Shown: positions 1 through 53,565, counted from the first letter of the whole stretch. The stretch: DNA of 63,999 nucleotides, filler included, from Chrysochromulina tobinii (GCA_001275005.1; 8 parts of 8 records of this genome joined end to end with filler, not necessarily neighbours in it), one strand, 5' to 3'. A program made the numbers and translations. Notes: generated from the letters alone by a model not told the origin.

Positions 1-1296
1 CGGCGCGCGCTGTGCCCTCTTTGAGCCGTTTGGATTCAAGCAGACGCTCGCGCTCAAATCGGCGCGAGCGCTCTGCATCGTCATCAGGCGAGTGCCCTCT
101 CATAGTGCCTCTCTTGGTGCCTCTCGGAGTGCCTCTCGGAGTGCCACCCTGATGGCCTCTCGGAGTGCTCAACTCGCGCTCGGCATCTCGTCATCAGCCT
201 GGACAATGGGAAGACGAGAGAAGATTTGGACCTGCGAGAGAGCACGTGGAGTTACCAATACCATGCGACCAAGTTCCAATTACTACACCAGTATGGGGGC
301 ACTCTCGAGAACCTTCTGCATGCCTCTGGATGCCTCGGAAAGCCTCCGAATGCCTCTGAATGCTCCGTGGTTGCAGGTATGGCGTCTATCTCGAGAATCT
401 CGTCTACTACCGCTCAACGGGTGCCTTCTCCGAGTGTGCGACGCACTACTTTGTCATGTCGGTGAGCAACATCGAGTCGCTCCAAGCCTTTGGCGTGCTG
501 CACCAGGCGTCCGTGGAAGAGCTGCGTGCGTCTTGCCACGATCCCCATGCGACGCTCTGCCAGCCGTCCAATGTGAGCAACAAAAAGCTCGAGCTGTACG
601 CACGTGCGGCCATCGCCACCTTCGTCCCCTCGCTCGCGACACATCCTATGGTCCCTGGGCAGCTCTCGCTCTTTGACTTTTCGGAGCGGTGGCAGTCGAA
701 TCGGGCGGCGATGCTCGTGCCGGGCGCCGTTCTGGGGCAGCAGCACGAGGTCCTCGTGACGCGCGTGGGCGACGCGCTGCAAGAGCCGTTTTGGTGACTG
801 ATGGCCACTGATGACCCTTGAGGACCACTGATTGCCACTGATGGCCTCTGATGATCACTGCTCGGCTACGTCGAGTCGCTTCAGGCCCGAGGGTTTGGGC
901 ATCAACCGCGGCTTCTTGGGCGCGCTCGACTGCGCGCACATGGTGCAGCACTACGCGGCCGTGCGGCGCGAGCGGCCAGGCGACGTCGAGGAGTGCTTGG
1001 CACGGCGCGAGGAGCTCTTTGGGCTGACCAAGCTGCTCTCTGGCCACAACCGCAAGGCAGAGTTGCGAGATCATCTCGAGGGCGCGGGGAGTGACGCGGA
1101 GAAGGGCTATGGCTACACGATCCAGCCACACACGCGCTACTTGCGCTGGAGCAGCAAGGCTGGGCTGTCGGCTGTGGCTGTGCCGGTGCCGGGTCGGGTT
1201 TGGGACAGGCGCCCACACAGCGAGCCGGCGGCGGACGAGAGCGCCAAGGCCAACCCACAGCAGGTTAGTGCGCTCTCGGCACTCTTTGGCTATTAG
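1..1296 (+). CDS. MICAL-like FAD-dependent monooxygenase, 5'-partial; exons 1-87, 198-290, 377-793, 885-1296
   Basis: The spliced product has MICAL monooxygenase motifs LENLVYY..THYFVM, VGDALQEPFW/PEGLGINRGFLGALD and YTIQPHTRY. Introns 88-197 (GC-AG), 291-376 and 794-884 restore the frame. The 3' end is uncertain (possible donor at 1264). Confidence 0.8.
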
Positions 1297-1527
1297 TGAT
1301 TAAGTGTTCTAGCGGGATTGACACGTCGAGGCGAATCGAAAAGAAATGATAATAATGGGGGGGGTGTTGTTGGTCCACTCCTACGAGTACATCTACGAGT
1401 ACATGCTACATGAACATGTGCGAGTAGTATTTACATAACTGTTAGCTGAAGCTGGGCGGAGGTAATCGTGGCGGCGGCCCAGCGGCAGCGGCACAGCGGC
1501 ACAGCGGCGCACGACTTGAATCCGCCT

Positions 1528-2526
1528 TCAATCAGGCACACTGTCGCCTCCCTCGACGAAGCCCTCGGCCCCCTCGACCTCCGCGATGCCGCCCTCTTGC
1601 CACCTGTCCTCCCACTCGCCGAGCGGCTGGCCCTGAGCTGCGGCTCGCGCCAGCATCTCTTCCTCCTCCTGCCAGTTCCGGAAGATGCGCATGCCTCGCC
1701 CGCCGATGCGCTCGAAGACACGCAACTCCTCGCCGCCGGGCGCGCCCGGAAGCGTCGCGATGCCGCGCGAGATGCGCACCATCTCGTCCACGTAGGTGGT
1801 GTCGAAGCCCCCCGCGACGACGCCTTGCAGCGGGCCGGGCAGCTCGATGTCGCTCTCCCGTGGGATCAAGTCGGTCAGTGCGCCCACGCCCACGCCGCCG
1901 TCGGGCTTGGTGTCGCCGCCGCTTGCGGGTAGTCCCTCGAGCCGCCGGCGCACGCGCTCGAGGTTGAGGCTGACTACGCTCCCCGCCGCGGCGCGCCGGC
2001 CACCCTTGCCCGCGCCACCCTCACCTTCGACGGCGAAGGAATGATCCAGCTCGAGGAACACCTGCGCCTGCTGCAGCGGCCCGAGCACGTCGCCCAGCGG
2101 CCCGGGTAGGGCTGATAAAAAGTTGCCTGCTGCACCTCCCGGCCACGGCGAGAGCGAGAGCGCGTTGACGACTCGCCGCGCCCGCACATCAATTCTTTGT
2201 ATCACATTCTGCGGAGCGAGCGGCGAGGTGGCGAGCGGCCCACGAAGGGTCGCGATGAGGCTGTCGAGCGCATCTGGAAGCATGCTCGCGGCAAGAGTCG
2301 ATGAGTACAAAAGGCGCCACTCGCCATCGAGAGCCATAAGGTCACGTGGGAACGCGGGTCTTGCCGCGTCCGCTTCGAGCGCCTCGCAAGCCGCCGCTAT
2401 GCGCCGGCCGGCGGTGGGACCACACACGTACCCGCTCGCCGGCAGGCCCTGAGCTTTGATGAGCGAGAGCAGCTCGGCCGACGGGACCGACGTGGTCGCC
2501 GTGAGAGCGGCGAGGAGGCAAAACAT
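1528..2526 (-). CDS. PAP/fibrillin (plastid lipid-associated) family protein
   Basis: Motifs LDGEWRLLYSST and FDTTYVDEMVRISRG; signal-like start MFCLLAAL (ATG at 2526). The longer ORF-track extension is antisense overlap with PDH E1 alpha. Confidence 0.8.
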   Translation of the reverse strand: MFCLLAALTATTSVPSAELLSLIKAQGLPASGYVCGPTAGRRIAAACEALEADAARPAFPRDLMALDGEWRLLYSSTLAASMLPDALDSLIATLRGPLATSPLAPQNVIQRIDVRARRVVNALSLSPWPGGAAGNFLSALPGPLGDVLGPLQQAQVFLELDHSFAVEGEGGAGKGGRRAAAGSVVSLNLERVRRRLEGLPASGGDTKPDGGVGVGALTDLIPRESDIELPGPLQGVVAGGFDTTYVDEMVRISRGIATLPGAPGGEELRVFERIGGRGMRIFRNWQEEEEMLARAAAQGQPLGEWEDRWQEGGIAEVEGAEGFVEGGDSVPD

Positions 2527-2577
2527 GAAGCAGAGATCGCCGCTCCGACGCGCGCTCAACTCGGCGCCACGAACCAT

Positions 2578-5782: not shown

Positions 5783-5953
5783 GTCCTTTTCCTACCGTTG
5801 AGCGCGCCGGACTTCGGCGCACGCCGCGAGTTTGGAGAATGGAGCTCGTCGCAAATTCCCCTCATTCTACACACTCAGGACCAGGCCAGGGTATCCTACA
5901 TGTTATGCTGGGAAGCAGCTCTCCCATCGTCGCTCGTCGCGACACTCGGACTT

Positions 5954-10849: not shown

Positions 10850-13004
10850 ATGAAGGTGAACCCGCCCGCACGTGCTCCCGCAATGGAGGTTGCTGTGACA
10901 GAACAGTCCGTTCTCGACATGACCCGCGAGGCGGCGATGGCTTTCCTCGAAGCGGACGCGGACGGAGATGCGCTCCTCGACTACGAGGAGTTCCGCATGG
11001 CCGTGCCTGAGCGCATGCGAGGGCAGACGTCCGAGGCCGCGCTGCGAGAACTCTTCAACACGGCGGACGCGGACGGCAGCGGGCAGATCTCGATGAGCGA
11101 GTTCTTCCTGTGGACACTGACGATCGCTCAGTCGGTAGGCGGCAAAGGGCTCGAGGCGGTCTTCATGCGCTATGACCGCGACTATCGCGGTACGCTCGAT
11201 GAAAGCGAGTTCGCGGCTGCGTGTGAGGAGATGGGCTTTGGCGGGCTCGCGAGCGAGCTCTTTTCAGAGCTGGACAGTGACGGCTCGGGCACGATCTCGT
11301 ACTCTGAGCTGCTCGGCATCCTCAAGGGGCGCGTGAACGTGGTGAGCAAGGACTGTAAGAGGTTCCTGACCACGCTTGCTTTCGACGCCACGAAGCCGCG
11401 CGCCAACGCCTCGGCCAGATCCGGTGGGCTGCTTTCCGACGTCGCCAAGGGTTGGACGCTGCATGGCTCAGATGCAGATGCTCTGCGGCTTGAGCTGCGC
11501 GAAAAGCTACAAGCGGCGAAGCTCAAGGTGTCGGATCTCTACCGCTTGATGACGCGCGGCCAGTCGCGCAGCCTGAGTGCGGCGACCTTCAGCAGCTCGA
11601 TGGTCGACGATCTCGGGTTCAAGGGGGAGCTGTCGGTCCTCGAGGGGGTGTTCACTGACCTCGATGACGACCGCTCGGGCGTGCTTGGCATCTCGGAGCT
11701 GTTCGGATGGATTAATGGCAAGCACAGCAAGGCGAAGCTGGCCAAGACGGTGACCCTCGCGTACGGGCGCGCCGAGGACGCGCGCTTAGCACGTGAAGCG
11801 AGGGCCGCGGCCGCGGTGGACGCCGCCCATAAGGCTGCCAAGGCCGCTGGCGCCACCGCGCCACCCGCGCCCGCTGCGGAGGAGGTGTCGGCTGACGAGT
11901 CTGTGTTCAGCCTCGCCTCGATCGAATGGTCAGCGGTTACGCTGCAATCGGAGCTCCAGGATATGCTGCTGCGCGCGCAGCTGCTGCCCCTCGACTTGGT
12001 CGATGCATACGAGGGCTATGCGTACGAGGGGCAGCTCTCCTTCAAGCAATTCCTCAAGATGATGAAGCGGCTCGTCAACCCGATCTCCGTCGAGGAGCTC
12101 GATCTCTGGGACATCGAGGTGCGCCCAGCCGTGACGGCGCTCTGATGACCTCTGATGACCTCTGATTGCGAGCTCGATCTCTGGGACATCGAGGTGCGCC
12201 CAGCCGTGACGGCGCTCTAATGACCTCTGATGACCTCTGATTGCATCTGATTGCGTCCCTCTTCAGGTGCGCCCTGCCGTTACGGCGATCTTCCAACGGA
12301 TCCACGGACTGGCGACCTCTCGGACACGTGCAGCTTCGTCTGCCCCCTCAAGCGCGCCAACCCCGGCGCCCACCCCGGCGGAGATCGCGCCCAGCAGAAT
12401 GGGCGATGTCAGAATGGCGGAGGTGCAGCGGTGGCTCATGCTTGGCTGGGCGAAGCGAAAGGAGAAGCGCGAGCGCGAGCGTGCCGCCGCGAAGCTGGTC
12501 ATCTATCGCGCCGCCAATCCCGACGAGACGGCGGCTGCCGACGCGGCCGCCGAGCGACAGAGACTCGCAGACGAGCAGGTCGCTGTGGAGCTGGTGAGGC
12601 GCGCTGCCGAGCGCCGCGCGTACAAGCTGGCGCTCCAGGGCGCGCCTCCGCGCAGCCATCGCGCCCTCGATCGCGAAGTGAGTCGAAGGGTGCAGTTGGA
12701 TAAAGCCGAGCGCACCGCTCAGATGCATGCGGACGCCACGAGCGCGAGCGGCGGCGCTGGCCACCGCGGCTTGCCGCCGGTGAGTACGACTCATGAGCGC
12801 ATCCTCGGGACTTCCGCGAAGCTGTTCCTGCAGCTCGCGTGCCGCATCGCCGAGGAGGGGGGGCAGGCATGGCTAGTCAAGCAGCGAATCGACGAGGCGC
12901 GACGCCGGCACGAGAAGAGCCTAGCCGACGCGCAGCAAGCGGCGCGCCAGCAGCGCGCCGCTGGGCATGCGCCCCTCCCGAGGTCCCGCCGAAAAATGTA
13001 CTAG
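10850..13004 (+). CDS. Multi-EF-hand calcium-binding protein; exons 10850-12118, 12267-13004
   Basis: EF loops DADGDALLDYEEF, DADGSGQISMSEF, DRDYRGTLDESEF, DSDGSGTISYSE, DDDRSGVLGISE. A phase-0 GT-AG intron 12119-12266 joins the two ORFs. Confidence 0.8.
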
Positions 13005-26700: not shown

Positions 26701-27032
26701 CGGCGACGGTGGTGGTGGGGACGGCATGAGTGTGGGCGAGGGCGGCGGCGGCGAGGGCGGAGGAGGAGAGGGCGGTGGCGGCGAAGACGGCGGTGGCGAG
26801 GGCGGTGGCGAGGGCGGTGGCAACGGCGGCGGTGCCATGCCTGGTGGATAAGGTGGTGGATAAGGTGGAAGCGGCGGCAGCGGCGGCGGCGGCGGCATTC
26901 GAGGGCCGCAGTCGGTGCAGTCGGTGCCAAGGCTGCAGGAAGTAAACTCGGCCCCGGATCCGCCGTCGTCGCAGTCACCATCAGAGGCGTAGTCGCACGT
27001 TTCTGTGCATAGCAAGGGCAGCGGCGGCGACG
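20707..27032 (-). CDS. Large Pro-rich modular extracellular protein, partial at both ends: 2 CDDGG Cys modules, 3 DDFS beta-sandwich domains, 2 Cys-rich modules, 3 LamG/ConA-like domains, 1 PAN-like domain
   Basis: Open ORF of over 2100 codons. LamG-type motifs FTL.AWVY, RVIDFGNG, WTHVAVV, IYWNG, LYVGKS.W...F.G.M.DL.VWD.ALS; PPPSP linkers. Confidence 0.8.
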
Positions 27033-31385: not shown

Positions 31386-31672
31386 CAGCCAACTTGAGGT
31401 TCAATGTGTGAATGTGATTCGACAGTTGTGAATGTGAAAGTGATTTTTTGGAGAACTTTGAACTGGCAGCTGTCGATTTTTTCCTGGTTCACCGGAGCGT
31501 ACCTAACGCGCGGTAGGATCCATCGGGGCACAACGAGTATACGCCCCCGCTATCCGGCCTATTCTGACGTCCCTATGAACGAAACGCACCGAAATGTACG
31601 CAACGACGTACTCGCAATCCACAACCCAGCCTACCGGGTGGACGTAGAAGTGAGGCGAGTCAGTTATGATGT

Positions 31673-34600
31673 TCAGGACTCGTCGCGATGGCGTCGGTAG
31701 ATTACGGGCCTTCTGGTGAAGCCCTTGATGCGTGACTTGAAGCGGTGGAAGCGGCCGCGCGCCGCCTTCTGCAGCTTGACCATGCGATCGAGATACGATG
31801 GCGGCGGGTTGGCCGCGCGAAGAGCAGCGGCCTCACGCCGCTTCTCGGCCTTCTGTTCGTTGCGCTCCTCCTGCGCAGTGGTGAACGTGAAGGGTGGAGT
31901 GTGAACGTGAAGGGTGAACTGAAGTGAGAAATGGAAGTGTGAATCGATTGGACGCCATTCGATGCGCTCCGGCGCTGTCAGAGGCACTGAGGTGCAATCA
32001 GAGGCACTCAGATGTCAACAAAGGCACTCAGAGGTCATCAGAGGCACTCAGGTGCAATCAGAGGTACTCAGAGGTCATCAGAGGCACTCAGGTCACCTCT
32101 GCGCCCTTCGCCGCGCCGTAGTAGTCATTGAGGATGGCAAGGAAGACGTTGACGAGGATGAAGAACATCCACACGACGTAGATGATGAAGAAGAGGACCG
32201 CGAGGGTGGTCTCCTGCGCCGTGCGCACCATGTCACGGTAGACGGCGACTGATCCAAAGAGGATGTTGAGCAGCGTGGTTGCAGATGAGAGCGTATCGGC
32301 GAACACACGCAGGGTAGGACCGAACATTTGCTCGGCGAACAGGGCGAAGCCCGCGATGAAGAGGAAGAGCATGAGGAAGAAGTACCTGATCAAGGGAGGC
32401 AATCGCTGGCCATTAGGGGGCACTCAACGGCACTCAACGGTAATCATCCGCAATCAACGTACGCCATGTCCTTGGTAGCGGACTCGAGCACGACCCAAAG
32501 CAGCGAGGTGGCGTCGAAGAGCCGAAAGTACCTGATGAGGGAGGCCATCAGGGAGGCATCAGAGGGGCCATCAGAGTGATGAGGGAGGCAATCAGGGAGG
32601 CATCAGAGGAGCCATCAGAGGCCATCCGAGGTCATTACTTGAACAGTTTGAGAAACGAGATTATAATGGAGAGGGAGTCGAAGGCGAAGGCAAGCACGTA
32701 GAAGTCCGCCACTGGGCCCAGCTCGGCATAGCGCGTGGCGAACATGCCCTTCGTGTACACCCAGCGCAACTCGGACGATGAGAAGAGCATGCGAGTCACC
32801 CAGGCGATGATGTAGGGGATGAGGTTTGCAATCTCGAGCATGTTCCAGATGTTGGTGATGTAAGGGATGGAGGTTCCGTACGTCCATCGTATCGACACGT
32901 AGCGCACGAATTCCTACGAGGCGCCGAGGTGGGCGCCGAGGCGGAAGGAGGAGCGTCAGGGGTACTCCGAGGTCACCAGAGGCCATCCGAGGCCATCCGA
33001 GGCCATCCGGATGGCCATCCGAGGCCATCTGAGGCCATTATGGGCCATCAGGGGCAGTGTACCTTGATGAAGAGGCGGAAGAAGAGGAGCATGAGCGCCG
33101 CGTCGTATTGGAACTCGACGGAGGTTAAGTAGTCGCTCATCTCCTTGACGCCCTCATACAGGTCGATCTTCATCACCTGCGATCTCGCGGGAGGGAGATG
33201 GCAATTGAGACAATCAAAGGCAATCAAGGCAATCAAGGGCATCTCCTGCACGCCCTCATACAGGTCGATCTTCCTCCCTTGAATTTGGGGATGGCGATCA
33301 GATGCAATCAGATGCAATCAGATGCAATCAGATGCAATCAGAGGCATCTCCGATTGTCCTTCCTCACCTTGAATTTGGGAATGGCAATCAGATGCAATCA
33401 GATGCAATCAGAGGCAATCAGAGGCATCTCCGATTGTCCTTCCTCACCTTGAATTTGGGAATGGGTGTGATGACGCCACCGGGCGAGAAGCGGAAGATGA
33501 GGTTACATGCGGCGTACAAGTTGAAGTTCGCATTGTAGACGGAGAAGTGCACGAACATCGCGCGCGTGCGCTCATCGAGCCACAGCATCTTCTTGAGCTC
33601 GTCGATGTCGGCGAGCATCCGGTCCTACAATCAAAGACAATCAAAGGCAATCAAAGGCAACCAAAGGCAATCAAAGGCAATCGAAGGCAATCAAAGGCAA
33701 TCAAAGGCGAGCATCCGGCCCTACAATCACGCGGATGGAGCGAGTGCCGTCAGAGGCCGTCCGAGGCCGTCCGAGGCCATCGGAGGCCATCGGAGGCACT
33801 CGGAGGCCGTCAGAGGCACTCAGAGATCATCAAAGGCCATCAGTACCTACCTTGGGCACGGTAGGGATGTCGGCCCCGGGGAGAGGCTCATCGGGACGAA
33901 TGTCACGCACGTAGCCGCCCCCGTCGAAGATCAGGTACGACGGCGCCTTCACTAGTGCCGCAGGGTAGTACTTGAAGCCGGAGCCTTGGAACGGTTCGGG
34001 CCCGCCGCACGTCTCGTTGTACTTGTTGATCTGCTCGATGCTCAAGCCGGGCGTGCCTAATAAGGCAGCACGCCCATCCGTGGTGCACGGCCCGAAGTCG
34101 TGCACGTCGCGCTTCTCCTCCGAGTACTCGAAGAAGCACTCGCCGCCACCCGTACACTCCGTCGGGTTGGAAGGGCTACACGGCTCGATAGGTCCCTGTG
34201 GGGAGAGGGGCGGGCGGGGCGCCGTGATGAGCACATGCATGCCAGCCGAGCACATGGCTGGAGAGCCAAGTACCTGTCATTAGTGGTCATTAGTGGTCAT
34301 TAGTGGTCATCATTGGTCATCATTGGAGAGCCAAGTACCTGGCATTAGTGGTCATCAGTGGTCATTAGTGGCGAGTCAAGTACCTGGAACACGAAGGATT
34401 GCTGGAACTTTCGCGATGCGATCTCGACGCGCCGTTGGATTTTGGGCGAGATATTGCACGAGATATTGCTCACACGCACCTGCATGCAAGGAGGGAGGCC
34501 ATGGGTGCATGCAAGGAGGGAGGCCATGCGAGACGCAGCTGGCTCGCTACCTGTCGGAAGCGCACCGCGCCCACGAGCTGGTTGTACATCATGATGTTGC

Positions 34601-35845
34601 CTGTTGCGTCAACGTCACTATCAAATAGTCCACTAACGAGGGTGCCTGATTAGGGGCGCAATCAGTGGTCCTCAGCGGCAGTCGGCCGCATCCTCAGCGG
34701 CACTCGGAGGCACTCCACATACCCTCCGTCCAGTCCCAGACATCCGCAAAGGTGCGAACATCCATAAAGGTTTTATCATTATAGTCCGCCTCAACAAAGA
34801 TTCGTTTGAGCGACTGGGTCAAGGCGAGCGCGTCTCGAAGTTCTCGCTTCTCGCTTGTAGACTGGCAGAGAGGGGTCGATCATGGTCATCAGTGGTCATC
34901 AGTGGTCCTCAGTGGCCCTCAGAGGCCATCAGTGGCCATCAGTAGTCATCACCTGGTAGAGGAGTAAGATGAGGATGAAATGCAACCCCATGTCAAAGAT
35001 CTCGCGCCGCCGATTGAGTTTGGGCTCGACATACTCCTTTCGCTGCATGTCGTCGTCGTCGGAGTCACTATCCTCCATCGTGGCCATCGCAGCGGCCGCT
35101 GCGGCTGCTGCGGCCGCGTCGGCCTCGTCCTCACCGTTCAGAAGCTCATCGCCGCCGCCGCCGCCGCCGCCGCCGCCCGGAAGCCTCCCGCCACCATCCC
35201 CTAGCATTTGGACTAGGCTCTGCACGTTAGGCTCGGGTTCGTCACCGTCCTCCTCAAAGTCCGCAGTCTCCTGTTCCTCCTCAGCCTCCTCGCGCCGCAC
35301 GAGTCGGATCGTCTGCTCGCCTGCGACGGAGGAGATGGCGACCCTCATCAGTGACTACACTCACTCGCAATCTCAATCTCACTCGCACTCGCACTCGCAC
35401 TCTCAATCTCATTCAATCTGAATCTCATTCACAATCTCACTCGCACTCGCACTCGCACTCGCACTCCGCACGCACCTCGGTAGCGAGCAATCTCACGCGA
35501 GACCGCCATGTCGTACGGCCAGACAGTTCCGTGTTCGTCCTCCAGCACGCACATGCTTGGATCGTCGCCGAAGGTGCGCGCGGCGTTGTTGCGCACCTCG
35601 CGGAAGGTTGTCGTGCGCCCGAGCCGCATCTCCAGCTTTTCCAGCGCGGCCTCGCGCGCCTCACCATTGGGAGTGTAGAAGACCGTGGTGATGGTCGGTC
35701 CGGAGCCTGCCGTCTTGTATGCCAAAGAGGCAGGCACGACGCCCCTGTCGGACTCCTGCTTCTTTTGGATCGCGCGGTCCATCGTCACTCGACACAGCTC
35801 CGTGAGCGACGCGACGCGCTGGTCATCGGTCTGGCGGACCGGACC

Positions 35846-35887
<42 letters not shown>

Positions 35888-37441: not shown

Positions 37442-38188
37442 ATGTCAGGCAACAACAGCGAAGGACTGATGCACGATCCGTACGCTTCGTCTGGCAGCAG
37501 CGGTAGCCTGATGACTCCGCCGCCGCTGCCGAGCGCAGACGATTTCCATCCGGTTGCGCCCTCCTCTGCTCCTGCCGATGATCTCTTCCTCAACATTCCA
37601 TCGGCAAAGCCGCCACAGCCTGACTTTCTCTACGACGAGAACTACGACGAGAGCTTTCGCCGCTCGTGGGGCGAGCGGCTGACGTACCATGTTGGCGCCG
37701 CCTATTCTGCCGGTGCGCAGGCTGCCTTGTATCTCGCTGCGCGTCCCGTCCCAGCGCTCCCGCACGCCTGCCGCCGAGGCCTGCACGCGTGCTGACAGCG
37801 CTGCGTTCCACGCGCGTGCGCAGGCTTCCTCTTCGGCACGTCGTACGGCCTGGTGCAGGGCCTCGCCGAGTCCAAAGGCCAGCGCCAGCGCATCCGCATC
37901 AACAGCGTGCTCAACTCTATGGGCATGAGTGGCCCTGGGCTTGCCAACTCCCTCGGGTGCATCGCACTAATGTGCTCATTTTTCGAGAGCGTGGCGTACA
38001 ACGTGCGCGGCACGGACGACATCCTCAACCCCGCCGGCGCGGCCGCGCTCACGGGCGTCCTCTACAAATCCACATCGGGCGCGCGCGTCGCGTTGCCTGC
38101 CGGGCTGGGCTTTGGAGCGCTCGCCGCCCTGGGCGCCTTCTGCTCCAGGCAGGTGGGTGTGCCGCGTTACCTCAAGAATCTGATGTGA
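37442..38188 (+). CDS. TIM23: Mitochondrial inner-membrane translocase Tim23; exons 37442-37712, 37824-38188
   Basis: RSWGERLTY.VG.AY..G, RIN.VLN....GPGLANSLG.IAL, RGTDDILN..GAAALTGVLYKS. Confidence 0.9.
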
Positions 38189-38494: not shown

Positions 38495-39997
38495 ATGGTC
38501 GAGGGTCCTGGCTGCACGCGCAATGGCCAAAAGGTTCGTGCGGCACTCATCGGCAAGCACGTGGTCGGAGTAGCTGGCCATGACAACTCAAAGGTGGCCA
38601 GCTTGATTCGCGCGAGGACCCTGATCGACTGTTTGACGCTTGGCAAGGAGTTGTGGCTGCTCTTTGCGGATGCAGCGGGGGAGCAGAGCGCAGTACGATG
38701 CCACTTTGGTATGAACGGCTCGTTGCACTGCGATTCGCAGCCTAAACATCCCGGGCAGCTGACACTCCTCATCCGCTTCCACGACGGCTGCCAGCTTCAA
38801 CTCTTCGACGCCACCACTTCACCAGCCGATGCACTGGCAGCTCGGCGCGCGGTTCAAGAGGGTTGTAATCGGGACGTGTGCCAGCCAGCCTTCGACGAAG
38901 CCGTGACCACGGCCGCGCTGACCGCCTCTCCAGCCGATCGAATGATCTGCGATGCCTTGCTCGACCAGTCCCTCGTGCCTGGCATTGGCAACATCATCAA
39001 GAATGAGGCGCTGCACGAGGCGTGCATGGACCCTCGTCGGTTAGTCAGCTCGCTCTCGCCCCCGGAGCTGCTGACGCTCGTCCGAGCAGCACGCGCCTTC
39101 TCGATGGCTTGGTGCCGTGCAGGCCGACACCCTGCTTGTCACATTTACAACCGGACACGTTGCCTTGCCTGTGGAGGGCCAGTGAGCTTCTGCAAGATGG
39201 GCGCCCTCGGACCCCCGCGCCCGACGTTTTGGTGCGCGGCGCGTGCGGCCGCCGGCACGTGCACCAAACCGCCCAACCCGGCCGCCGAGGCGCCCATTAC
39301 GGCGCCCATTACGGCCGCCGAGGCCGTCGCTCCTTTCGAGGCGCCCGTTACGGCGTCATCATCCAAGCGGCCCAGGAGCCTTCCACAGAGCCTTCCACAG
39401 GCGAGCAACCCTTGGACCCTCTCCGTGCCAGCGGCACCGCTCATGCCAGCGGCGCCGCCCTCGATGATGGCGGCGCAGCCCTCGCCCGGCATGCAAGTGC
39501 TCCCCACGGCGCCGCTCTCGGTGCTGGCGGCGCAGCCCTCGCGCACCAGACATCCATTAGGTGAAGCTTGCATGCATATGCCGATGGCCCCTCCGGCGCA
39601 CACCTCAGAGATTCTCTCCGAGATTGGGCACGAGATTGCGTGCCGGCCAAATGTTGCCGTTGTAACGCCCCCGTTGCGTGGGCGGGTCTGCCCGCGGCAC
39701 GGTCGTCACACGGTCGTGCTCCGCCGGGTCCGACGCACCGGGGACAACTTCGGCCGCCTCTTCCTGAGCTGCCGGGAACGAGAGTGCGAGCACTTTGTGT
39801 GGAGCGATGGCGCGTTCCCCGCGTGCGCGTGCACACCCGCCAGGAGCGCTGGGCTGCGCATCTCCAAGAAGGCGGAGAGCGGCGGCCGTTGGTTCTTCGG
39901 CTGCCGGCGGCGCGACGCGCAAGCATGCGGGTTCTTTCGCTGGGCGGCGGCCGAGGATACGCTAGCCCTTGGTGATCTGCTCAAGCCGCTGACGTGA
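38495..39997 (+). CDS. NEIL3: Endonuclease VIII-like 3 DNA glycosylase with two GRF zinc fingers
   Basis: N-terminal MVEGPGC (Val2, typical of NEIL3), GKELW, HFGMNGS, H2TH motif LLDQ..PGIGNIIKNEAL, and two C-terminal GRF-type fingers. Confidence 0.92.
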   Translation: MVEGPGCTRNGQKVRAALIGKHVVGVAGHDNSKVASLIRARTLIDCLTLGKELWLLFADAAGEQSAVRCHFGMNGSLHCDSQPKHPGQLTLLIRFHDGCQLQLFDATTSPADALAARRAVQEGCNRDVCQPAFDEAVTTAALTASPADRMICDALLDQSLVPGIGNIIKNEALHEACMDPRRLVSSLSPPELLTLVRAARAFSMAWCRAGRHPACHIYNRTRCLACGGPVSFCKMGALGPPRPTFWCAARAAAGTCTKPPNPAAEAPITAPITAAEAVAPFEAPVTASSSKRPRSLPQSLPQASNPWTLSVPAAPLMPAAPPSMMAAQPSPGMQVLPTAPLSVLAAQPSRTRHPLGEACMHMPMAPPAHTSEILSEIGHEIACRPNVAVVTPPLRGRVCPRHGRHTVVLRRVRRTGDNFGRLFLSCRERECEHFVWSDGAFPACACTPARSAGLRISKKAESGGRWFFGCRRRDAQACGFFRWAAAEDTLALGDLLKPLT

Positions 39998-40957: not shown

Positions 40958-41731
40958 TTACGACACGAGCGTCGAGGCGGTGGCCGACTCGTATTTCCAG
41001 TTGGGCGGCAGCGCCTTGACGGTGCGGTAGTAGCGCGAGGTGCGGTGGATGCGGGACTCGATCAGGATGAGGCGGAACTTGGCATCCTTGTCCTGACGGA
41101 ACTTGTCGAGGTGCTTACGAACCTGCACCGCCTTCTTAATGAGGCAATAGAGATCCTCGGGGAGTGCCGGGGCGAGACCTGCACGCGCAGAGAGAGACGC
41201 ATGGGGCGACGCCGGATGAGCATAACGCCACGCACGCGAGCGTTCCACTGCACGGCAGCCGCAGCCGCCGCCGCCGCCGCCGCCGCCGCTGCCGCCGCCG
41301 CTGCAGTAGCCGCAGCCGCAGCCACCGCCGTCGATATAGACCGTTGCTGACCCACGATGCGGCAGCCGCTGCTGCCGCCGGCCCGCTCGCTCTTCGCTTC
41401 CTACGTCCGAGCGAGGCATCGTTCCGCTGCGGACGCTCATCGCTCGTGGCCGACCGCTGGAGATGCTTCCGGGCGTCGCGCGGCAGGAGCGCGCACCGTT
41501 CTTCTTGAGCATACGCAGGATCTTGCTGCCGGTCAGGTGCGACACCTGAGCGATGCCGTACGAGTCACGAAGGATGACACCAATCTGCGACGGCGTCAAG
41601 CCCTTCTTGGCGAGCTTGCAGACGTGCTCGACGACCTCAGTCGGCGACGTCTTGAGCCATGACGGCGGCGTCCGGCGGTAGGGCAGCGCAGACTTGGAGA
41701 TACCCTTTCCCTTGCTGTGCATACGACCCAT
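40958..41731 (-). CDS. RPS13: 40S ribosomal protein S13 (uS15); exons 41731-41497, 41178-40958
   Basis: [18 protein letters not shown]...[13 protein letters not shown]...G/LAP.LPEDLY...[16 protein letters not shown]; intron 41179-41496. Confidence 0.97.
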
Positions 41732-42110
41732 GGTGCTTCGAGGTTGGTGTTGGGCGAACGCCTCTTCCTCTCCTCACCTGAGACACAGAGAGCCGAAAGC
41801 GCCTGAGGTCAGCGCTGAGGTCCAAAGAGGCCTGCCTGGTAGCCGCGAGCGCGCGTGCATATCCGGGCGTGTGGCAACGAGGCGTGGTCCATCCGACGCT
41901 GCGCGCCCATCGGAAGCGCGGAGCCGGCGGTGGCCGCGACAGGGAGAGCGCCGCATCGCAAGAGCGCAGGCGACCTCAAGACGACGGGGACGAGGCCTGT
42001 GTGAAGTGGCGCTTCCCCTTCCCTTTCTAGTTGCCAGTCGGAAATCGTTGCACAGTCGGAAGACTAGCTTCCTGCTGAAGCGGCGGCGCGCGCGCTGGAC
42101 GCGGAGCGCG

Positions 42111-43214: not shown

Positions 43215-43962
43215 ACGCGCGGAGACCGCATGGGCTGAGAGAGCTCCCCGCCAGCTGCCGCCCCCCCACCCTCACCCACCCGCCGCTGTCGCCGCCGTGA
43301 AGGCGAGACCGACTGGCACACCGACGCTACCACCCGTGAGCGTCACAGCTGATTGAATCCATATGACTTACTTTGTGATTGTGCTTGCATGCGAGCCCCA
43401 TTTCCTTGGCGCTGTGTATTTGTGGCTGGAGAGTGATGTGGCTCGGAAACAGTTCAAAGCATTCTTCAATGTAATTCCTAACGTAAGATTTCACGGCCCC
43501 GCAATGCGATCGGCCGCCCGGGACGCCCGCGGTTTCCCGTCCCCGGCCGGGCGACGGCGGTCGCGGGTCGGCGCCATCGATTCCGTTGACCGGTTCGGCG
43601 ACGGTTCGGGGTGCGCTCGAGGCACTCCCTCCGCGCGACTCGCGAGAACCATCGATGAGCACGTACGACGTGGGACGTGCGGCGGCGGAGCAGCTCGAGA
43701 ATGTCAGCGGAGCGGGGCAAGGGAGCTCGGGACAGCGCCGGTCACGAGACGTTCTCGTGTATCCGCCGCCACGTGGAACTAACACCTCGGCCCGCTCTCC
43801 TTCCGTATCTAAGGTCTCACGTCTCTAGTCCCTGGTCTCACGCGAAGCGAGCCTCGGTTTCGTCAGTGGCTTCAGCAGCGTCCTTCCTCAAGGTTTCGTC
43901 TCAAGCGAAGCGAGCCGACGGAGGTGAAGGATCCAATTGACGACTCGCTAACGGCTCTGGTC

Positions 43963-46347
43963 TCACGCGAAGCGAGCCTCGGTCGGCCGATTATTGAAGC
44001 CGGCCTGGTGCCCATAGCGCAGTGAGCGGTCCTTGAGCGCTGTCATGAGCGAGAGCACCTTAAACTTGTGCTCGCCGCTCATGGTCTTCTCGAGGATGCG
44101 CACCTGATGAGGGAGGCAATCGGCGCCAATCAAGGGCACTCGTCGGCACTCTCGATTGCGGCCGCACTCAGTCGCCGTGCCGAGGATGGTTGCCTCATTC
44201 GGATGCGCACCTCGACCGTGCAGCCGCAGTCGGCGGCGCTCGTGACGGCGCTGTGCGTGGCCGAGCCCGTCCGCTCAGCACGTCGCGTGGCTGTGATCAT
44301 CATGGCCTTGAAGACGGAGAAGCGTCCACCGGGCACGTGGCCGTCGATCTCAACGGGCTCGCACGCGCAGTCGTCGACGCACGTGACGCGCGCGATCCCC
44401 ATGTGCTCGTAGCTGATCAGGTGGCCCAGGATGAGAACGAACGGCTCGCCGCGCGGCAATCGGGACACGTCGAGGCAGAAGCGCGCCACGTCACCTGTGC
44501 GGAGGGGCGAGGGCGTCGTGGTGAGCACTTGCATGCAGGTGCCCACATGACAGCGCGTCGAGGCAGAAGCGCGCCACGTCACCCGGCTTGCGCCCGACGA
44601 TGCCCGGCTTCATCTTGGCATCAGTACCCTCGATCGTGTACGCAAACCCCACAGAGGTCGAGAGCTGGAGCCGATCGCGCAGCTGCTCGTCCTTGAGGCA
44701 GGTGCCCACTGGCGCTTCGTCGGCGTCGGCGTACCTGATGAGGGAGGCCATCAGGCACGCCACACACAGTGGCCATCAGTGGCCATCAGTGGCCATCCGT
44801 GGCCATCCGTGGCCATCAGTGGCCATCAGTGGCCATCAGTGGCCATCAGTGTGATTCGGCGTACAGAGGCGCGTTTAGCTGCGGCCCGCCGTGTTCACGC
44901 AGCGTCGCTGTGCACGTGGGGCCAATATGGAGGGCGTCGTGGTGGGCGTCCGGAGGGGCGTCTGCCGGCGTCGCCGCTGCTGCTGCCGCCGCCGCCGCCG
45001 CCACCGCCGCCACCGACGACGACGACGGCTGAGCGGCCGCGAGCGCGCGCTGATGATCGATCGCGCCCTCGATGAGAGTAACGACCATCTGCGCCATCAG
45101 TGAATGCCCCCACGCGGAGGGATGATGACGGTCATGGAACACTTGCTTAATCGGGAAGGCGCTCGCATTCGCTTTGAGCTCGCGAAACAGAGCGCCCCGC
45201 AGTGAGACGCAGGGCACGCCGTAGTACGCCGCGAGGTCGTTGATGGCGTCCTCGGCGCCAACCGTTGCGCCATGCCCTCGCCAATTGAACGCGAGGTCTT
45301 GCGGACTCGGGTAGGGGACCTGTGGGGAAGTGAGAGCGCATCGTGGTGGGCACTTTCACATGCTGGGCGCCGTCTTGGGCAAACCATGGACCTCCGCTGG
45401 CTTGGTAGGGTCGGAGGCAATCAGAGCTCATCAGAGCTCATCGGAGCTCATCAGAGCTCATCAGAGCTGATGAGGGAGGCAATCACCGTCGCTGGATTGG
45501 TAGGGTCGTAACTCCCATGCTCGAAGGGTAAGTGACCAATCTTTGGCACAATCTCCATCGTGTTGACGATGACGATCGCGGGCTGCGAAGGCAGCCGGAG
45601 CAGTCTGCGCAGCAGCCGCTCGAAGCTCTGCGCGTCGTCCGGCATCGCATCGAAGTTGACCGCATACTCGAGTAAGATCAGATCGGCGCCGTTAGGTGGC
45701 AGGTGCCACGCCACACAGTGCTCCATGTACGAAGGACCCGAGGCTGGCACCGCCCCCTGGAAGTGCTCGTGCGCCGCCAGCGGGAAGGACGCATTCAGGT
45801 ACTGGTAGACCTTCCAGTGATAGAGGGCGCGGCTCCTGCCCGTGGTGAAAGTCGTGCCGAACGAGACTGAGCCTCCGAGCACGCTCAGTCGTGTGAGGTG
45901 GCCGGCGAGGAGCTTCTCCGCGAGGCAGCGCAGGCGCTGCGGGTCGCCCGGGTTGACCAGGCCGCGCGCCAGCTGGCGCTCGCTCAGAAAGGTCCAGCGC
46001 GCATCATGCTGCTCCTTGTACGAGTTGTGCGGTGGGTGCCGCCAGATGCGCTTGAGCCGCGGCTCGCTCGCCGAGTAGAAGTTCTCGGCGACTGCGGGTG
46101 CCGACAGGCCAAGCTGCGGCGACGCGGCGGCGGGCAGCACCATAGCCGGCGACGGCGGCGGCGCGTGGCCGTCGTCGTCAGCGCCTCTTGGCGTCGCCGT
46201 CGGCCGTGGCGTGCACCACGTCGACTCCGGCGAGTGCGTCACGTGCTCGACCGAGACGGACAAGTGCTGCCACGACATGAGCGTGAGCAGCAGCAGCGAG
46301 TTGAGCACGCTCGACGCGATCAGCATGAGGTTTTGTGCGGTAGGCAT
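43963..46347 (-). CDS. SGNH-hydrolase-like type II membrane protein; exons 46347-45487, 45319-44865, 44734-44583, 44494-44211, 44103-43963
   Basis: N-terminal TM segment; blocks LGGSVSFG, GAVPASG, DLILLEYAVN, FERLLRRLL, D.HHPS.WGH; C-terminal T.SGEHKFKV. Four GT-AG introns restore the frame. Confidence 0.82.
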
Positions 46348-49500: not shown

Positions 49501-51531
49501 CAGTCGTAGCCTGCACCAGTCGCGGGCGAAGCGCGGTTGCAGAAGCCGCACAGCATTTCTGGGTTGGCCTGCGTGCCACGGTAGACGATGAGGTCATCAT
49601 AAAAAGACAGGAATAGGGAAGGGCCCGTGAACTCGGCGAAAGTGAGGACGCTGCCGGCTGGCTTGAACGTGGGGGCCGTGTACGTCAGGTGGGTCTCGCC
49701 AGTGCTGAACGCAGGGGGGCGAGGGCCGCAGTCCGAGCAATCGGTTCCGCGTGTGCACCAGACAAACTCGGAGCCAGGGCCGCCGTCCTGGCAATCGCCA
49801 TCGGAGGAATAGTAGCAAGTGTCGGAGCAGCCTGTCAGATACGAGTTGTCGGTCACGAAGATCTGGTCGCCCGGGAACAGGTGATCGAAGAGCACGATTG
49901 CAAAGTCATCGGGGTCGTCGTGCTTGACGTAGATGATGGCGCACTCGCCCTGGTCTAGCTGCGGCTGCATTGGCGGCGGCGGCGTCGAGGGTGGAGAGGG
50001 CGGCGACGAGGGCGGGGGTGGCCGAGTCGGAAGAGGAGGCCTGTACGTGCTGCGCGGGCCGCAGTCCGTGCAGTCAGTACCGAGACTGAAATAGGCAGCC
50101 TCGGAGCCCGGCCCACCGTCCTCGCAGATGCCGTTCGACGCATACACGTAGCCGTAGCTGGTACCGTAGTAAATGCATGTGTCCAAACAAGTGATGACGC
50201 CGCCCGGGAACGCCGGGGGCGCGGGTGCTGGCGGCGGCGGCGACAACGGCGGCGACCGCGGTTGTCGCGGGCCGCAGTCCGCGCAGTCGGTGCCGTACTG
50301 GCAGTCCGGGTACTCGGCGCCCGGGCCGCCGTCGTCGCACCAGCCGTCCGAGGCATAGTATGGATTTCCGATGCACGTATTGGTGCAGATCGCAGGCGCT
50401 TCGGGCGGCGCAGGCGGCGATCGAGGAGGTCTTGGTGGCGCTGGCGGCGATGGAGGCGGCAAGGGAGGCGGTGGCGGCGGCGGCACGTGCGCCCCAAAGC
50501 AGATGATGAAGCCGCCGCCAACGACAACCGAGTCGGTAGACCACTGCAGCCGCGTGCCCGCAGACGCATTTCCCAGGTTGGCCATGGCGTTGAACGCCGC
50601 CACGCCCGATGTGGTGCCGCTGCAATATGAGCCCAGGGCGCACGAGGCGCAGTTCGGTTGACCGGGGCACATCCCGGGAGCGTACCCGGATGCAGAGTTC
50701 ACGGACGGGTACGAGATCCTGATCCAGTCATAGTTAGGCTCGACGTCGTAGTACACAGCCGTGATGGTCGACGGTGCGGTCGTCTGGATGACGCACTGCT
50801 CGTTGTTCTGGTGGAGGCCCTCGCCGTCCCACACGCAGGTGCCTATGCCCGGGAAGCTCGTGTGATTCGTCGACTGGCAGTGCTGCTGGCCCGAGACCAC
50901 GCAGAAGAGCTCGCCGCAGTCAGCCGGCGGTGGCGGTGGCGGTGGCGGCGGCCTGTACGTGCTGCGCGGGCCGCAGTCCGTGCAGTCAGTACCGAGCCTG
51001 CACCAGGCAGCGGAGGAGCCCGCCCCACCGTCCTCGCAGATGCCGTTCGACGCGTAATATGTGCCGCCAGAGAAAGGCGGAGACGGAGCGCATGTGTCCA
51101 AACAAGTGATGACGCCGCCCGGGAGTGCCGGGGGCGCGGGTGACGGCGGCGGCGACAACGGTGGCAGAGGCGGCGACGGAGACGGATCATATGGGCACCA
51201 CACTGTTGAGGACGCAAATCCTGTCGTCCTTGGACAACAACATGACGATCCCGATCCCGAACACCCCGGCACTCCATAACAATTCGAGCCCGTATTCTCG
51301 GTGTATCCGATGATGCAATATTGGTTTGAACACGCCGACCCACCGCAGTTGGAGCACGACGGGGGCGCAGGCGGAGGCGCACGCGGCGCAGGCGGCAAAG
51401 TAGGAGGTCTTGGAGGCGCTGGAGGCGGCGACGGAGGCGAGGGCGGCTGGGGCGGCGCGGAGGGCGGGTCGGGGTAGATCTCGAACGAGGGAATGACGAA
51501 GCTCGCCACGTTGCCGACCACGTTGCTAAAG
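46550..51531 (-). CDS. Large Pro-rich modular protein with about a dozen CxDGG Cys modules, a CUB-like domain and two D.PD.F...TDN domains; partial, probable frameshift near 47008
   Basis: Repeated C..TC..ASDG.C.DGG.G.E...C..G.DC.DCGPR modules; NEQC.I...YDVE..YD...W.TD..V..GGF.IC (CUB-like). The ORF continues in another frame after 46986. Confidence 0.78.
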
Positions 51532-51631
51532 NNNNNNNNNNNNNNNNNNNNNNNNNNNNNNNNNNNNNNNNNNNNTTAATTAATTAANNNNNNNNNNNNN
51601 NNNNNNNNNNNNNNNNNNNNNNNNNNNNNNN

Positions 51632-53565
51632 GCTCGGCAGCTCTCCCATCGAAGAGATCTCGTTCATCGACAACCCCATCTGCCTGAGCAGCTCGGTCGT
51701 GCGCAAGCAGAAGCTCGAGTAGGAGCTCGATGCGGACCTCAAGAAGCAAGCGAACGCGTCGCGATCGACACCCGCATCCGAGTGGGCCAAGGTGCAGCTG
51801 CAGACGCGCCAGGCACTCGCGGAACGGACGGCGCAGAGCGTGCCCGCCACGGCGCTCCAACAGGAGGACTTTGCGGCGGTGCTGCGACTCCCTAGGGAGT
51901 TACGTCAGGATCGTTGGCAGGTTCGTTGATTGCCAGTGCTCACCACAGCGCGCGCCCTCGGCCGTTGGCAGGATCTTGGGGGGTTGTATGGCTGGACGCA
52001 CCATGTATGGCTGGACGCACCATGCCTCGACGCCGGGGCGCGGTGGAAAGCACTTGCATGCTACGACGCCGGGGCGCTCGGCGCGCGCCGGCGCCGGCGC
52101 GAGCTCAGCGCGAGATCAACACGACCTGCCTGAGCGCATGCTGCTGCCCCTGCCACGTCATCTCTCGAGTCTCACCGACGAGCAGCTACACCAGCTGTGG
52201 GAGATGGTGACTGCGCCACAGCCCCAGAAGGAGATTGTCTATCGCTCCGGCGCGCTCGGCGCGATTGCACAGCTCATCATGATGCCGGGCAATCGGCTGC
52301 ACACACTGGACCTATCAGGTGTTGCGCTCTGTGGGCTGGATCCGGCGGGCAAACCCAAGCTCACCGGCGAGTATCTTTCGGATAGCATCGAGCTACTGTG
52401 CAATGCCATCGAGAGCGAGAATTGCGTGCTCAAGGTGAGTGGAGGGCCACTGATGGTCACTGATGGGCACTGATGGGACACTGATGACTTTTGATTGCAT
52501 TACCCACAGGTTCTCCGGCTCGAGCATAGCAAGATGCGGGAGGCAGAGGCACGCAAGATTGCCGCGGCGGTGCATCGGTCCCTGCGTCACGAAAGGCCCA
52601 TGCTCGATGCCCTCGTCGTGGAAGAGTTCGTGATCCCGGTGTCGACGCTGCTCGGATACGTGGTCGAGCCGGATCGCATGGTCGGGTTCGGCAAGACGAA
52701 TGCGCCTGTGGGGAAGAGCCGGCTCGACTGCGACAAGCACGTGCTCCTTCCGACCGAGCTGCGCGTGCTCGTCGACCTCCTAGGCGCCAACGAGGTGCTC
52801 GAGGAGATCTGCTTCACGGGCGCGCGCGTTCGTCATGAGCTTGTGTGGATGTCACAGACGATCCGGGAAGGGCGCATGCCACTCGTCAAGCTGCTGCTCG
52901 CCAACAACGGCATCTCGGCCATCCAAGGGCAAACTCTCGTGCACTCGCTCCAAAAGGGGGCGAGGCAGCTCCAAGTGATTGCCACTGATTGCCACCGATG
53001 GCCACCGATGGCCACTGATGGCCACCGATGGCCACCGATGGCCATTGGTGGCCATTGATGGCCATTGATGGATGACCACTGATGGCCACTGATGGCTACT
53101 GATGGCGCTCAAAGTGGGGTGAGTCAGCGTCGGGTTCTCGACTCGAGCCTCTGCGTGCAACGGATTGCCGTTGATTGCGACTTGATGGCACACTCAATGG
53201 CCGATGATTGCACTCCTCATCAGGTGCTCGACTTGAGCCACAATCCAATCTGCGGTGTCGAGGAGGCGCTCGACGGTGGGCGCCAAGAGTACGACACTCG
53301 GTGCATCGAAGCGCTCGCAGCCTGGTTGACCGGGCCGTGCCAGCTGCAGGAGCTGTACCTAGTGGACGTGGCGCTTTGCGGGCGCGCCAAGGACGGGAAT
53401 GGCATGTACCAGCCTGGCTGCTTGCACGTGCTCGCCGAGAAGCTGGGTTCGGAGCGGTGCTGGCTGCGAGATCTCGATCTGACGGGCTCGGCCATCCGCG
53501 AGGAGGAGACCTTCGCTCTTGGGCGCGGACTCGTTCATAACAACGGCTCGCTCCGCGAGCTCAAG
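51632..53565 (+). CDS. RNI-like leucine-rich repeat protein, partial; supported exons ...-52434, 52510-52974, 53224-53565
   Basis: LHTLDLSG, LK/VLRLEH, LVKLLLANNGI, LQ/VLDLSHNPI, LRDLDLTGSAI. The 5' exon has an in-frame TAG at 51720. The 5' junction and the link to ORF 53782-54728 are unresolved. Confidence 0.65.

What the first reader, a model, noticed from the sequence alone, without database searches (positions are those of the whole stretch)
88..53223. Candidate intron-generating system: satellite-filled introns built on duplicated exon junctions
Seen: in five unrelated genes on several contigs (MICAL-like, EF-hand, PKD2-like, SGNH-like, LRR), introns combine three parts in various mixes. 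These are (a) arrays of one decamer family, (b) shared 3' acceptor cassettes and (c) direct duplications of flanking exon sequence of variable length (about 4, 6, 9, 10, 25, 27 and 55 nt). Established: introner transposons in algae create introns with short, family-fixed target-site duplications and near-identical bodies. Tandem duplication of AGGT sites is a separately described, rarer route. Inference: variable duplication length, repeated re-duplication and a different decamer variant in each intron fit neither model cleanly. They suggest a repair- or polymerase-driven process (templated insertion or slippage at a break) that adds a splice-competent repeat. I cannot verify whether this is already described for this lineage.
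Basis: partly seen in the sequence, partly recalled or inferred. Interest (0 to 1): 0.88.

Follow-up and report, generated by a model that had tools for sequence, protein, structure and literature searches.

The report
Introns born as patched exon duplications
In this alga's genes many introns are patchworks of a short copy of the neighbouring exon, a shared 10-base repeat and a shared end piece; three are seen spliced out, several are missing from related organisms, and they likely arise when broken DNA is repaired with splice-ready repeats rather than from an ordinary jumping gene.

Summary
Real, with corrections. 12 of 22 introns in the five genes carry a copy of their own flanking exon (about 9-56 nt) above chance; 0 of 2 control introns do. 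The 4- and 6-nt cases are chance-level. Three duplicated introns (S2, S3, S4) are spliced in RNA contigs, and independent assemblies carry the same duplications. S1-S3, M1 and M2 are absent from genomic homologues, so they are likely gains. S4 is shared with one distant clade, and two repeat-filled introns without duplication (M3, P9) sit at shared positions, so the decamer also fills older introns. Intron bodies are at most 70% alike and lack terminal inverted repeats: these are not ordinary introners. One cassette also sits between 18- and 14-nt direct repeats outside introns. A distant relative has new introns of the same build filled with telomeric repeats. Best reading (0.55): staggered-break repair with templated filler, filtered for spliceability; target-primed retro-insertion is the main rival. 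The scan noted this before on other DNA (a 15-bp-flanked intron in this genome; telomere-repeat introns in others). New variant of break-repair/tandem-duplication intron gain; no enzyme identified, no within-species polymorphism found.

The parts
88..197 (+). M1, MICAL-like intron, GC donor; last 10 nt copy the end of the upstream exon; 12-mer decamer variant
   Evidence: site continuous in 10 genomic homologues; splicing inferred from open frame
291..376 (+). M2, intron starting with a decayed 24-nt copy (19 of 24) of the downstream exon start
   Evidence: site continuous in genomic homologues; splicing inferred
794..884 (+). M3, decamer-filled intron without exon copy, at a position shared with homologues
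   Evidence: a 97% identical protein (P0190) runs across it
12119..12266 (+). E1, EF-hand intron: 21-nt copy of downstream exon start (2 differences, both synonymous in the exon frame), decamers, then a 75-nt re-duplication that includes the exon end and donor
   Evidence: no RNA or orthologue test
35321..35475 (-). P1, hexamer-array intron, no exon copy; absent from orthologue's genomic ORF P0003
34862..34952 (-). P2, decamer intron, donor formed by exon-adjacent G plus repeat unit; no exon copy
34646..34722 (-). P3, decamer intron with cassette-A-like acceptor; no exon copy
34480..34550 (-). P4, intron with 25-nt tandem duplication of its acceptor piece; upstream copy stops short of the G
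34196..34383 (-). P5, donor segment repeated three times between decamer runs; cassette B acceptor
   Evidence: spanned without differences by DNA contigs
33625..33850 (-). P6, inner copy of acceptor plus 15 nt of downstream exon (33706-33722) between two decamer arrays
33177..33447 (-). P7, 56-nt inner copy of the exon-exon joint (33240-33294; 17 up + 39 down), two further 80-nt copies of exon end and donor, decamer arrays
   Evidence: junction gap-free against mRNA-like orthologue
32914..33062 (-). P8, decamer intron with an off-register 17-nt copy of upstream exon (32938-32954)
   Evidence: null fraction 0.009
32532..32638 (-). P9, decamer + cassette A (duplicated, 44 nt); position shared with the orthologue (P0004 stops at the same point)
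32386..32462 (-). P10, 4-nt junction match only (chance level); seen unspliced in one RNA contig
31871..32096 (-). P11, decamer array, no significant exon copy; absent from orthologue's genomic ORF P0002
45320..45486 (-). S1, starts with cassette A, decamers, inner 26-nt copy of the exon joint (45388-45413), cassette-B-like acceptor; absent from genomic orthologues; splicing not bridged by RNA
44735..44864 (-). S2, 9-nt copy of downstream exon start, decamer array, cassette A; spliced
   Evidence: (X14, X15)
44495..44582 (-). S3, perfect 27-nt copy of downstream exon start (30 nt in alleles L002, L003) plus 61-nt cassette B body; spliced; absent from all genomic orthologues that cover the site
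   Evidence: (X14, X15)
44104..44210 (-). S4, 12-nt junction repeat, cassette A; spliced; position shared with L010/L012/L017
   Evidence: (X13, X14)
51921..51971 (+). L0, predicted 51-nt intron ending in a 9-nt copy of upstream exon end; partial cassette B
   Evidence: gene model unverified
52435..52509 (+). L1, predicted decamer intron, no exon copy
52975..53223 (+). L2, predicted intron: repeat-derived donor, decamers, decayed 45-nt inner copy of the exon-exon joint (53106-53149), cassette-A-like acceptor
   Evidence: above null maximum
39468..39542 (+). Non-intron insertion: cassette B core (39-nt insert) between 18-nt direct repeats, 57 nt in frame inside an Fpg/Nei-like ORF
52028..52077 (-). 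Non-intron insertion: reversed cassette B core (22-nt insert) between 14-nt direct repeats, period 36
41179..41496 (-). Control intron (ribosomal-protein gene; name from my reading of the sequence): no decamer, no exon copy; spliced in RNA
37713..37823 (+). Control intron (Tim23-like gene; name from my reading): no decamer, no exon copy

Best explanation
These introns are likely scars of staggered DNA breaks repaired by fill-in synthesis, which copies 9 to about 40 bases of exon and patches in a filler templated from the genome's abundant intron repeats. Shown: the exon copies, their variable length and register, splicing of three cases, and absence of five copy-bearing introns from homologues. 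Inferred: (1) fill-in of an overhang or a template switch makes the direct repeat; (2) the filler comes from the decamer arrays and acceptor cassettes of other introns; (3) only products that splice out exactly survive in coding sequence - donor GT from the copied exon or from G plus a repeat unit, branch point from the decamer (it holds the CTRAY consensus, recalled), acceptor from the cassette or the copy; (4) the young, repeat-rich intron is hit again, giving the 44-80-nt re-duplications and inner exon-joint copies; (5) the same fillers also enter older introns. A polymerase-theta-like end-joining route fits (recalled knowledge; no enzyme tested).
For: Copy lengths 9, 10, 10, 12, 23-27, 24, 28 nt at junctions and 17-56 nt inside introns, in downstream, upstream and inner registers. 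Bodies unlike each other: top pairwise identity 0.70, median 0.43 over 276 pairs; terminal inverted match <=6 nt, no more than a control intron. Cassette B also lies outside introns between 18- and 14-nt repeats, cut to 39 and 22 nt, in both orientations: insertion does not need splice sites or fixed ends. Gains: S1-S3 absent in genomic orthologues L016 (3 own introns), L017, L018, L012, L013, L008, and S3 also in L019; M1/M2 continuous in 10 of 63 hits that betray genomic origin by intron read-through. Same build elsewhere with other fillers: L017 has 3 introns missing from L018 (96.7% identical) and 4 missing from L010/L012 besides the one shared with L018; three are telomeric-repeat arrays, one between 24-nt direct repeats, two with G-rich then C-rich runs head to head; L019 has a 32-nt perfect junction repeat. 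At S2 the acceptor folds back on an 11-bp stem that includes exon bases (z -4.9), a hint of snap-back copying.
Against: No enzyme or break was observed. All 59 decamer hits are sense-strand and 5 of the 7 junction copies begin right behind the acceptor AG, as reverse transcription of an AG-ended RNA would also give. S4, M3 and P9 sit at positions shared with homologues, and P1 and P11 are unshared without any exon copy, so copy and gain do not map one to one. No presence/absence polymorphism: L002 holds S1-S4, L003 holds S3 and S4 (the two it covers), and 14 of 15 listed near-identical proteins read into S1. S1 was not bridged in 4 RNA runs and P10 was seen unspliced in one contig. MICAL-like and SGNH-like genes are families, so some 'orthologues' may be paralogues; L018 could be a partly spliced transcript.
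Confidence: 0.55

Rival explanations
1. Target-primed reverse transcription: a non-LTR retrotransposon enzyme copies AG-ended RNAs (excised introns or a short mobile cassette) into nicked exons, giving variable target duplications and 5'-truncated bodies; those with GT at the start of the duplication become introns.
For: Strict sense orientation of decamers; 5 of 7 junction copies start directly after the acceptor; cassettes A and B are multi-copy (intron bins reach up to 15,444 summed depth against about 40 single-copy in DNA run X6); variable duplication length is typical of this chemistry (recalled); about 5% of classified introners are non-LTR-derived (PMC12130899, passages). An earlier scan note read a 15-bp-flanked intron of this genome as a mobile family (not re-tested).
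Against: Upstream-type and inner copies (M1, L0, S1, L2, P6, P8), inserts cut at both ends and reversed (39468, 52028), bodies <=70% alike and the head-to-head telomeric introns of L017 are not expected. No autonomous element with a cassette was found in the window, Rfam, viral contigs or prokaryote genomes; the organism's genome was not available.
Confidence: 0.22
2. Old introns are patched: a break in an existing intron is repaired from the gene's spliced RNA/cDNA or an intron-less allele, copying part of the exon joint into the intron; decamers spread separately. No intron is created.
For: Four introns hold an inner copy of the exon-exon joint (P7, E1, S1, L2). S4 has a junction copy at a position shared with L010/L012/L017. 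The S1 copy matches another allele's exon at one site; both E1 differences are synonymous. M3 and P9 show decamers in shared positions.
Against: S1-S3, M1 and M2 are missing from every genomic homologue that covers them except one with an insertion beside M1. On the tree S4 needs 2 gains or at least 3 losses, and the other clade's intron has its own, opposite-register 13-nt copy. Insertions outside introns are not explained.
Confidence: 0.13
3. Decayed ordinary introners (fixed short TSD) later scrambled by slippage and tandem duplication.
For: A Chrysochromulina sp. introner family with 4-bp TSDs is published (PMC9860276, passages); shared acceptor cassettes; cassette A has a 7-bp local inverted repeat.
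Against: The best-preserved case (S3, perfect 27-30 nt) has no short fixed TSD; no terminal inverted repeats; bodies dissimilar; published TSDs are 3-9 bp.
Confidence: 0.08
4. Assembly artefact at satellites.
Against: DNA contigs of run X6 span 31600-33006, 33679-34305, 34283-34912 and 41336-44531 with no differences (may be the source sample); L002 and L003 from other assemblies carry the copies with their own variants; RNA joints remove exactly one copy; several copies have diverged.
Confidence: 0.02

Closest known systems
Intron gain during staggered double-strand-break repair (Daphnia pulex; PMC4202315, passages; PMC3443670, passages)
   Same: New introns flanked by a direct repeat of adjacent exon, variable length, secondary internal repeats in young introns, parallel gains at one site.
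   Different: Daphnia repeats are 4-12 bp and inserts mostly have no known source; here copies reach 27-39 nt and fillers are genome-wide decamer arrays and shared acceptor cassettes (telomeric repeats in L017).
Tandem genomic duplication of AGGT-containing exon (PMC3443670, passages; PMC4974935, search listing only)
   Same: Splice sites recruited from a duplicated exon segment; L017's 24-nt case uses AG|GT inside the repeat.
   Different: Here foreign filler lies between the copies and usually supplies the acceptor; many donors are not in AG|GT context.
Introners / introner-like elements (PMC9860276, passages; bioRxiv 10.1101/2020.10.14.339549, parts 1-2 of 4; PMC12130899, passages)
   Same: Element-borne 3' splice site with 5' site taken from the target duplication; shared sequence among introns of unrelated genes; reported in a Chrysochromulina sp. 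MAG.
   Different: TSDs there are 3-9 bp and fixed per family, bodies are similar end to end, often with TIRs; none of this holds here.
10-11-bp tandem repeats in Emiliania huxleyi introns (Read et al. 2013; recalled, paper not held) and interstitial TTAGGG in Calcidiscus (PMC13518057, passages)
   Same: Haptophyte introns rich in about 10-bp repeats; telomeric repeats inside chromosomes.
   Different: As I recall and as far as the passages seen go, neither links the repeats to exon duplications or intron creation.

Membership tests
Introner (DNA-transposon type) | Short TSD of fixed length per family (3-9 bp) | tested here: not met
   Junction repeats of 9, 10, 10, 12, 23-27, 24, 28 nt; cassette A introns S2, S4, P9 have 9, 12, 3
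Introner (DNA-transposon type) | Near-identical bodies end to end across loci | tested here: not met
   Top pairwise identity 0.70, median 0.43, 276 pairs; window only
Introner (DNA-transposon type) | Terminal inverted repeats | tested here: not met
   <=6 nt in all 24, control intron also 6; only a local hairpin at cassette A
Introner (any type) | Autonomous partner element | tested here: inconclusive
   None in window, Rfam, viral or prokaryote collections; own genome not held
Break-repair intron gain (Daphnia type) | Intron absent from outgroups | tested here: met
   S1-S3, M1, M2, P1, P11; not met for S4, M3, P9; untested for E1, P2-P7, P10, L0-L2
Break-repair intron gain (Daphnia type) | Direct repeat of adjacent exon above background | tested here: met
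   7 of 24 vs 5 of 552; 0 of 100,000 permutations
Break-repair intron gain (Daphnia type) | Presence/absence polymorphism within the species | tested here: not met
   L002, L003 and 14 of 15 listed near-identical proteins carry the introns they cover; small sample
Break-repair intron gain (Daphnia type) | Dependence on an end-joining pathway | not testable with these tools
   Needs induced breaks or repair mutants
Tandem genomic duplication (AGGT) | Intron consists only of duplicated exon with both sites from AGGT | tested here: not met
   All window cases hold non-exonic filler
Non-LTR / SINE-like retro-insertion | Fixed 3' end with variable TSD and 5' truncation | tested here: inconclusive
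   Fits S2, S3, S4, E1, M2; fails for M1, L0 and the two non-intron inserts
Spliceosomal intron | Removed from RNA at GT..AG | tested here: met
   S2, S3, S4 in 2 of 4 runs each; others inferred from frames and homologues

The most novel reading that the evidence does not exclude
Haptophyte-like algae share a transposon-free, ongoing intron factory: breaks in genes are healed with splice-competent simple repeats (telomerase-type TTAGGG in one lineage, a self-propagating branch-point decamer plus acceptor cassette in this one) between variable exon duplications, and this is a main source of their new introns genome-wide, with old introns serving as templates for new ones.
Probability: 0.3. Interest if true: 0.88.

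Novelty: new variant of a known kind. Interest (0 to 1): 0.72.

Why it matters
How new spliceosomal introns arise without a transposon is a long-open question, and proven break-repair gains are few (5 events in the 2012 review table, PMC3443670, passages; 90 young introns in Daphnia, PMC4202315). Here half of the introns in five genes keep a readable footprint, at several ages, in an organism whose DNA and RNA runs come from mixed cultures, and relatives show the same build with a different filler. Length-variable footprints and dissimilar bodies would be missed by introner searches that need family similarity. The case is directly testable by a genome-wide census and by induced breaks. It also matters for annotation: duplicated donors and acceptors mislead gene models.

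Tried and rejected
No whole genome is held, so there is no genome-wide census. First lay of reads at 85% likeness was swamped by satellite contigs; only the control intron's joint showed; PKD2 junctions have no direct RNA joint. A lake DNA run (X21) covered only fragments at depth 2.5-3.7; it matched 7 bases into P7, a weak hint that a 97% relative has P7; not used. One homologue search was out of frame and found nothing. Cassette A and decamer trimers: 0 hits in viral contigs; cassette B: 1 hit at the end of a contig with tandem-repeat context, no element recognised. 14 hits in prokaryote genomes had at most 1 decamer match each and the 5 read looked like chance. Rfam: 0 hits. Cassette B does not fold better than shuffles (z +0.8, -0.5). 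Inverted exon copies inside introns: 1 of 24 under 0.01, not claimed. Microhomologies at re-duplication joints are 1-3 nt by eye, not distinguishable from chance; not used as evidence. The 4- and 6-nt duplications were rejected as chance. Literature: 10 searches and term look-ups in haptophyte genome papers (PMC4580454, PMC8379373, PMC12480563, PMC11347835, PMC13518057, bioRxiv 10.1101/2024.05.26.595999) showed no description of this build; supplements were not read, subscription papers are not held, and the E. huxleyi genome paper and its supplement may bear on the decamers.
Full report
Setting. The window is a chain of contigs joined by linkers from a GC-rich eukaryote. No whole genome is held. 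A homologue of one gene is named from Isochrysis galbana and earlier scan notes call the genome a haptophyte, so I treat it as a likely haptophyte; I did not test the genus.

Observation. I annotated 24 introns, 22 in the five genes and 2 controls. Removing them gives open frames. All 11 PKD2 junctions agree with a 980-aa uninterrupted orthologue (P0005, 61% identical; 10 without a gap nearby, one beside a gap). S2-S4 junctions align cleanly with SGNH-like homologues; S1 lies in a gappy loop. Decamer pattern hits: 59 in introns, all sense, 3 outside. Cassette A occurs 6 times (0.00 expected) and the cassette B core 5 times (0.13 expected; one of the five looks like a chance match in another gene). 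Junction self-similarity: 7 of 24 introns score >=9, against 5 of 552 mismatched pairs; no permutation of 100,000 reached it. Aligning each spliced exon joint to its own intron adds inner copies: P7 (56 nt), E1 (49), L2 (45), S1 (26), P6 and P8 (17). The union is 12 of 22, and 0 of 2 controls. The 4- and 6-nt cases are chance-level.

Not an artefact, and spliced. Logan contigs of a DNA run span four stretches that include P5, P8-P11 and S4 without differences (the run may be the source sample). L002 and L003, from other assemblies and differing at 46 and 23 places, keep the S-intron copies; satellite copy number differs. RNA contigs skip exactly 107, 88 and 130 nt at S4, S3 and S2, each in 2 of 4 runs, all three in one contig. 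Against: S1 was not bridged, and P10 was unspliced in one contig at low depth; DNA may be present in these libraries.

Are they gains? One metagenome scan gave 19 loci of the SGNH-like gene: 3 are this organism or its alleles, 7 distant ones besides L010 are genomic by own introns or neighbouring genes (L008, L012, L013, L016-L019; L008 and L018 less surely), the rest may be transcripts and were not counted. S1-S3 are absent from all genomic loci that cover them. S4 is present in L010, L012 and L017 and absent from L008, L013, L019 and the P0015 cluster. On the tree of 18 proteins (L010 left out) this needs 2 gains or at least 3 losses; the other clade's intron carries its own 13-nt copy in the opposite register, which favours parallel gain but does not prove it. 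For the MICAL-like gene, 10 of 63 hits end in intron read-through near M3 yet run straight through M1 and M2; an eleventh has an insertion beside M1. The M3 position itself is shared: 4 representatives stop exactly as ours does and 3 break one base downstream. In the PKD2 orthologue, genomic ORFs run through P1 and P11, stop at P9 as ours does, and point to two introns that ours lacks. So five copy-bearing introns look new, one is shared, two new-looking introns have no copy, and two shared introns are decamer-filled without a copy. E1, P7 and the L introns were not tested.

Beyond the finding. Cassette B also sits outside introns, between 18-nt repeats in frame in an Fpg/Nei-like ORF and, reversed, between 14-nt repeats. 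L017 has three insertions missing from L018 (96.7% identical) and a fourth missing from L010/L012; three are telomeric-repeat arrays, one between 24-nt direct repeats that provide both splice sites, two with G-rich then C-rich runs head to head. TTAGGG is the haptophyte telomere repeat (PMC3622300, passages). L019 has a 32-nt perfect junction repeat with another filler. Splicing of these was not tested.

Mechanism. Variable length and register, ragged inserts in both orientations, dissimilar bodies (top identity 0.70), no terminal inverted repeats and interchangeable fillers point to break repair with templated filler, followed by selection for exact splicing (0.55). The decamer and the telomeric C-strand both contain the branch-point consensus (motif recalled), and in several introns a G plus a repeat unit makes the donor; use of these branch points is untested. 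Target-primed reverse transcription of AG-ended RNA explains the sense bias and the five copies that start behind the acceptor (0.22). Patching of old introns from spliced RNA or an intron-less allele explains the inner exon-joint copies and S4 (0.13), but two successive DNA events explain them too.

Known and new. Introners have family-fixed 3-9-bp TSDs, including a 4-bp family in a Chrysochromulina MAG; membership fails on three features. Daphnia break-repair introns have 4-12-bp repeats, secondary internal repeats and parallel gains; this works like them, with longer copies and identifiable, shared fillers. Decamer-rich introns in E. huxleyi are recalled, not read. Ten searches found no account of this build; supplements and subscription papers were not seen. 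The scan itself noted related cases before: a 15-bp-flanked intron in this genome read as a mobile family, and telomere-repeat introns in other genomes. Verdict: real, a new variant of a known route of intron gain, interest 0.72.

Noticed in passing
L017:1167-1241, 1938-2010, 2260-2407: Telomeric-repeat introns absent from close relatives L018/L012/L010; one between 24-nt direct repeats, two head-to-head G-rich/C-rich, as if both break ends were extended and rejoined.
   Followed up: partly
L019:370-438: 69-nt intron between perfect 32-nt junction repeats with a different filler; the same locus has GC and GA donors.
   Followed up: partly
window 39468-39542 and 52028-52077: Cassette B core inserted between direct repeats without forming an intron; the first adds 19 codons to an Fpg/Nei-like protein.
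   Followed up: partly
proteins P0194, P0279, P0281, P0197 cluster: Intron read-through behind the M3 site encodes decamer-like periodic peptides, suggesting this and another 10-bp repeat in other lineages; introns at this site occur at two positions one base apart, even within one 90% cluster.
   Followed up: no
window 32576-32595 and 34505-34528: In two duplicated acceptor pieces (P9, P4) the upstream copy ends one base short of the AG, as if duplications that made a competing acceptor were selected against; P6 is an exception.
   Followed up: no
window 44512-44539 (table 5c): RNA contigs show the cassette B core repeated in tandem with a 30-nt spacer at some other locus; may relate to the palindrome-bounded exon cassettes noted earlier in this genome.
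   Followed up: no
window 18684-20603 (-): 640-aa ORF at a contig end that looks by eye like the C-terminal part of a non-LTR retrotransposon; no Pfam hit.
   Followed up: partly
window 20707-27032 and 46550-51531 (-): Very long intron-free proline-rich, repeat-domain ORFs (2,100+ codons open).
   Followed up: no
window 51632-52130: 5' part of the LRR-like gene has an in-frame stop and a 19-nt tandem duplication; may be broken or non-coding.
   Followed up: no
window 36014: All four runs lack one base here, likely an assembly error that breaks the PKD2-like frame near its start.
   Followed up: no
window 62665-63999: Copia-like retrotransposon end with an internal inverted duplication at the window end, by eye.
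   Followed up: no
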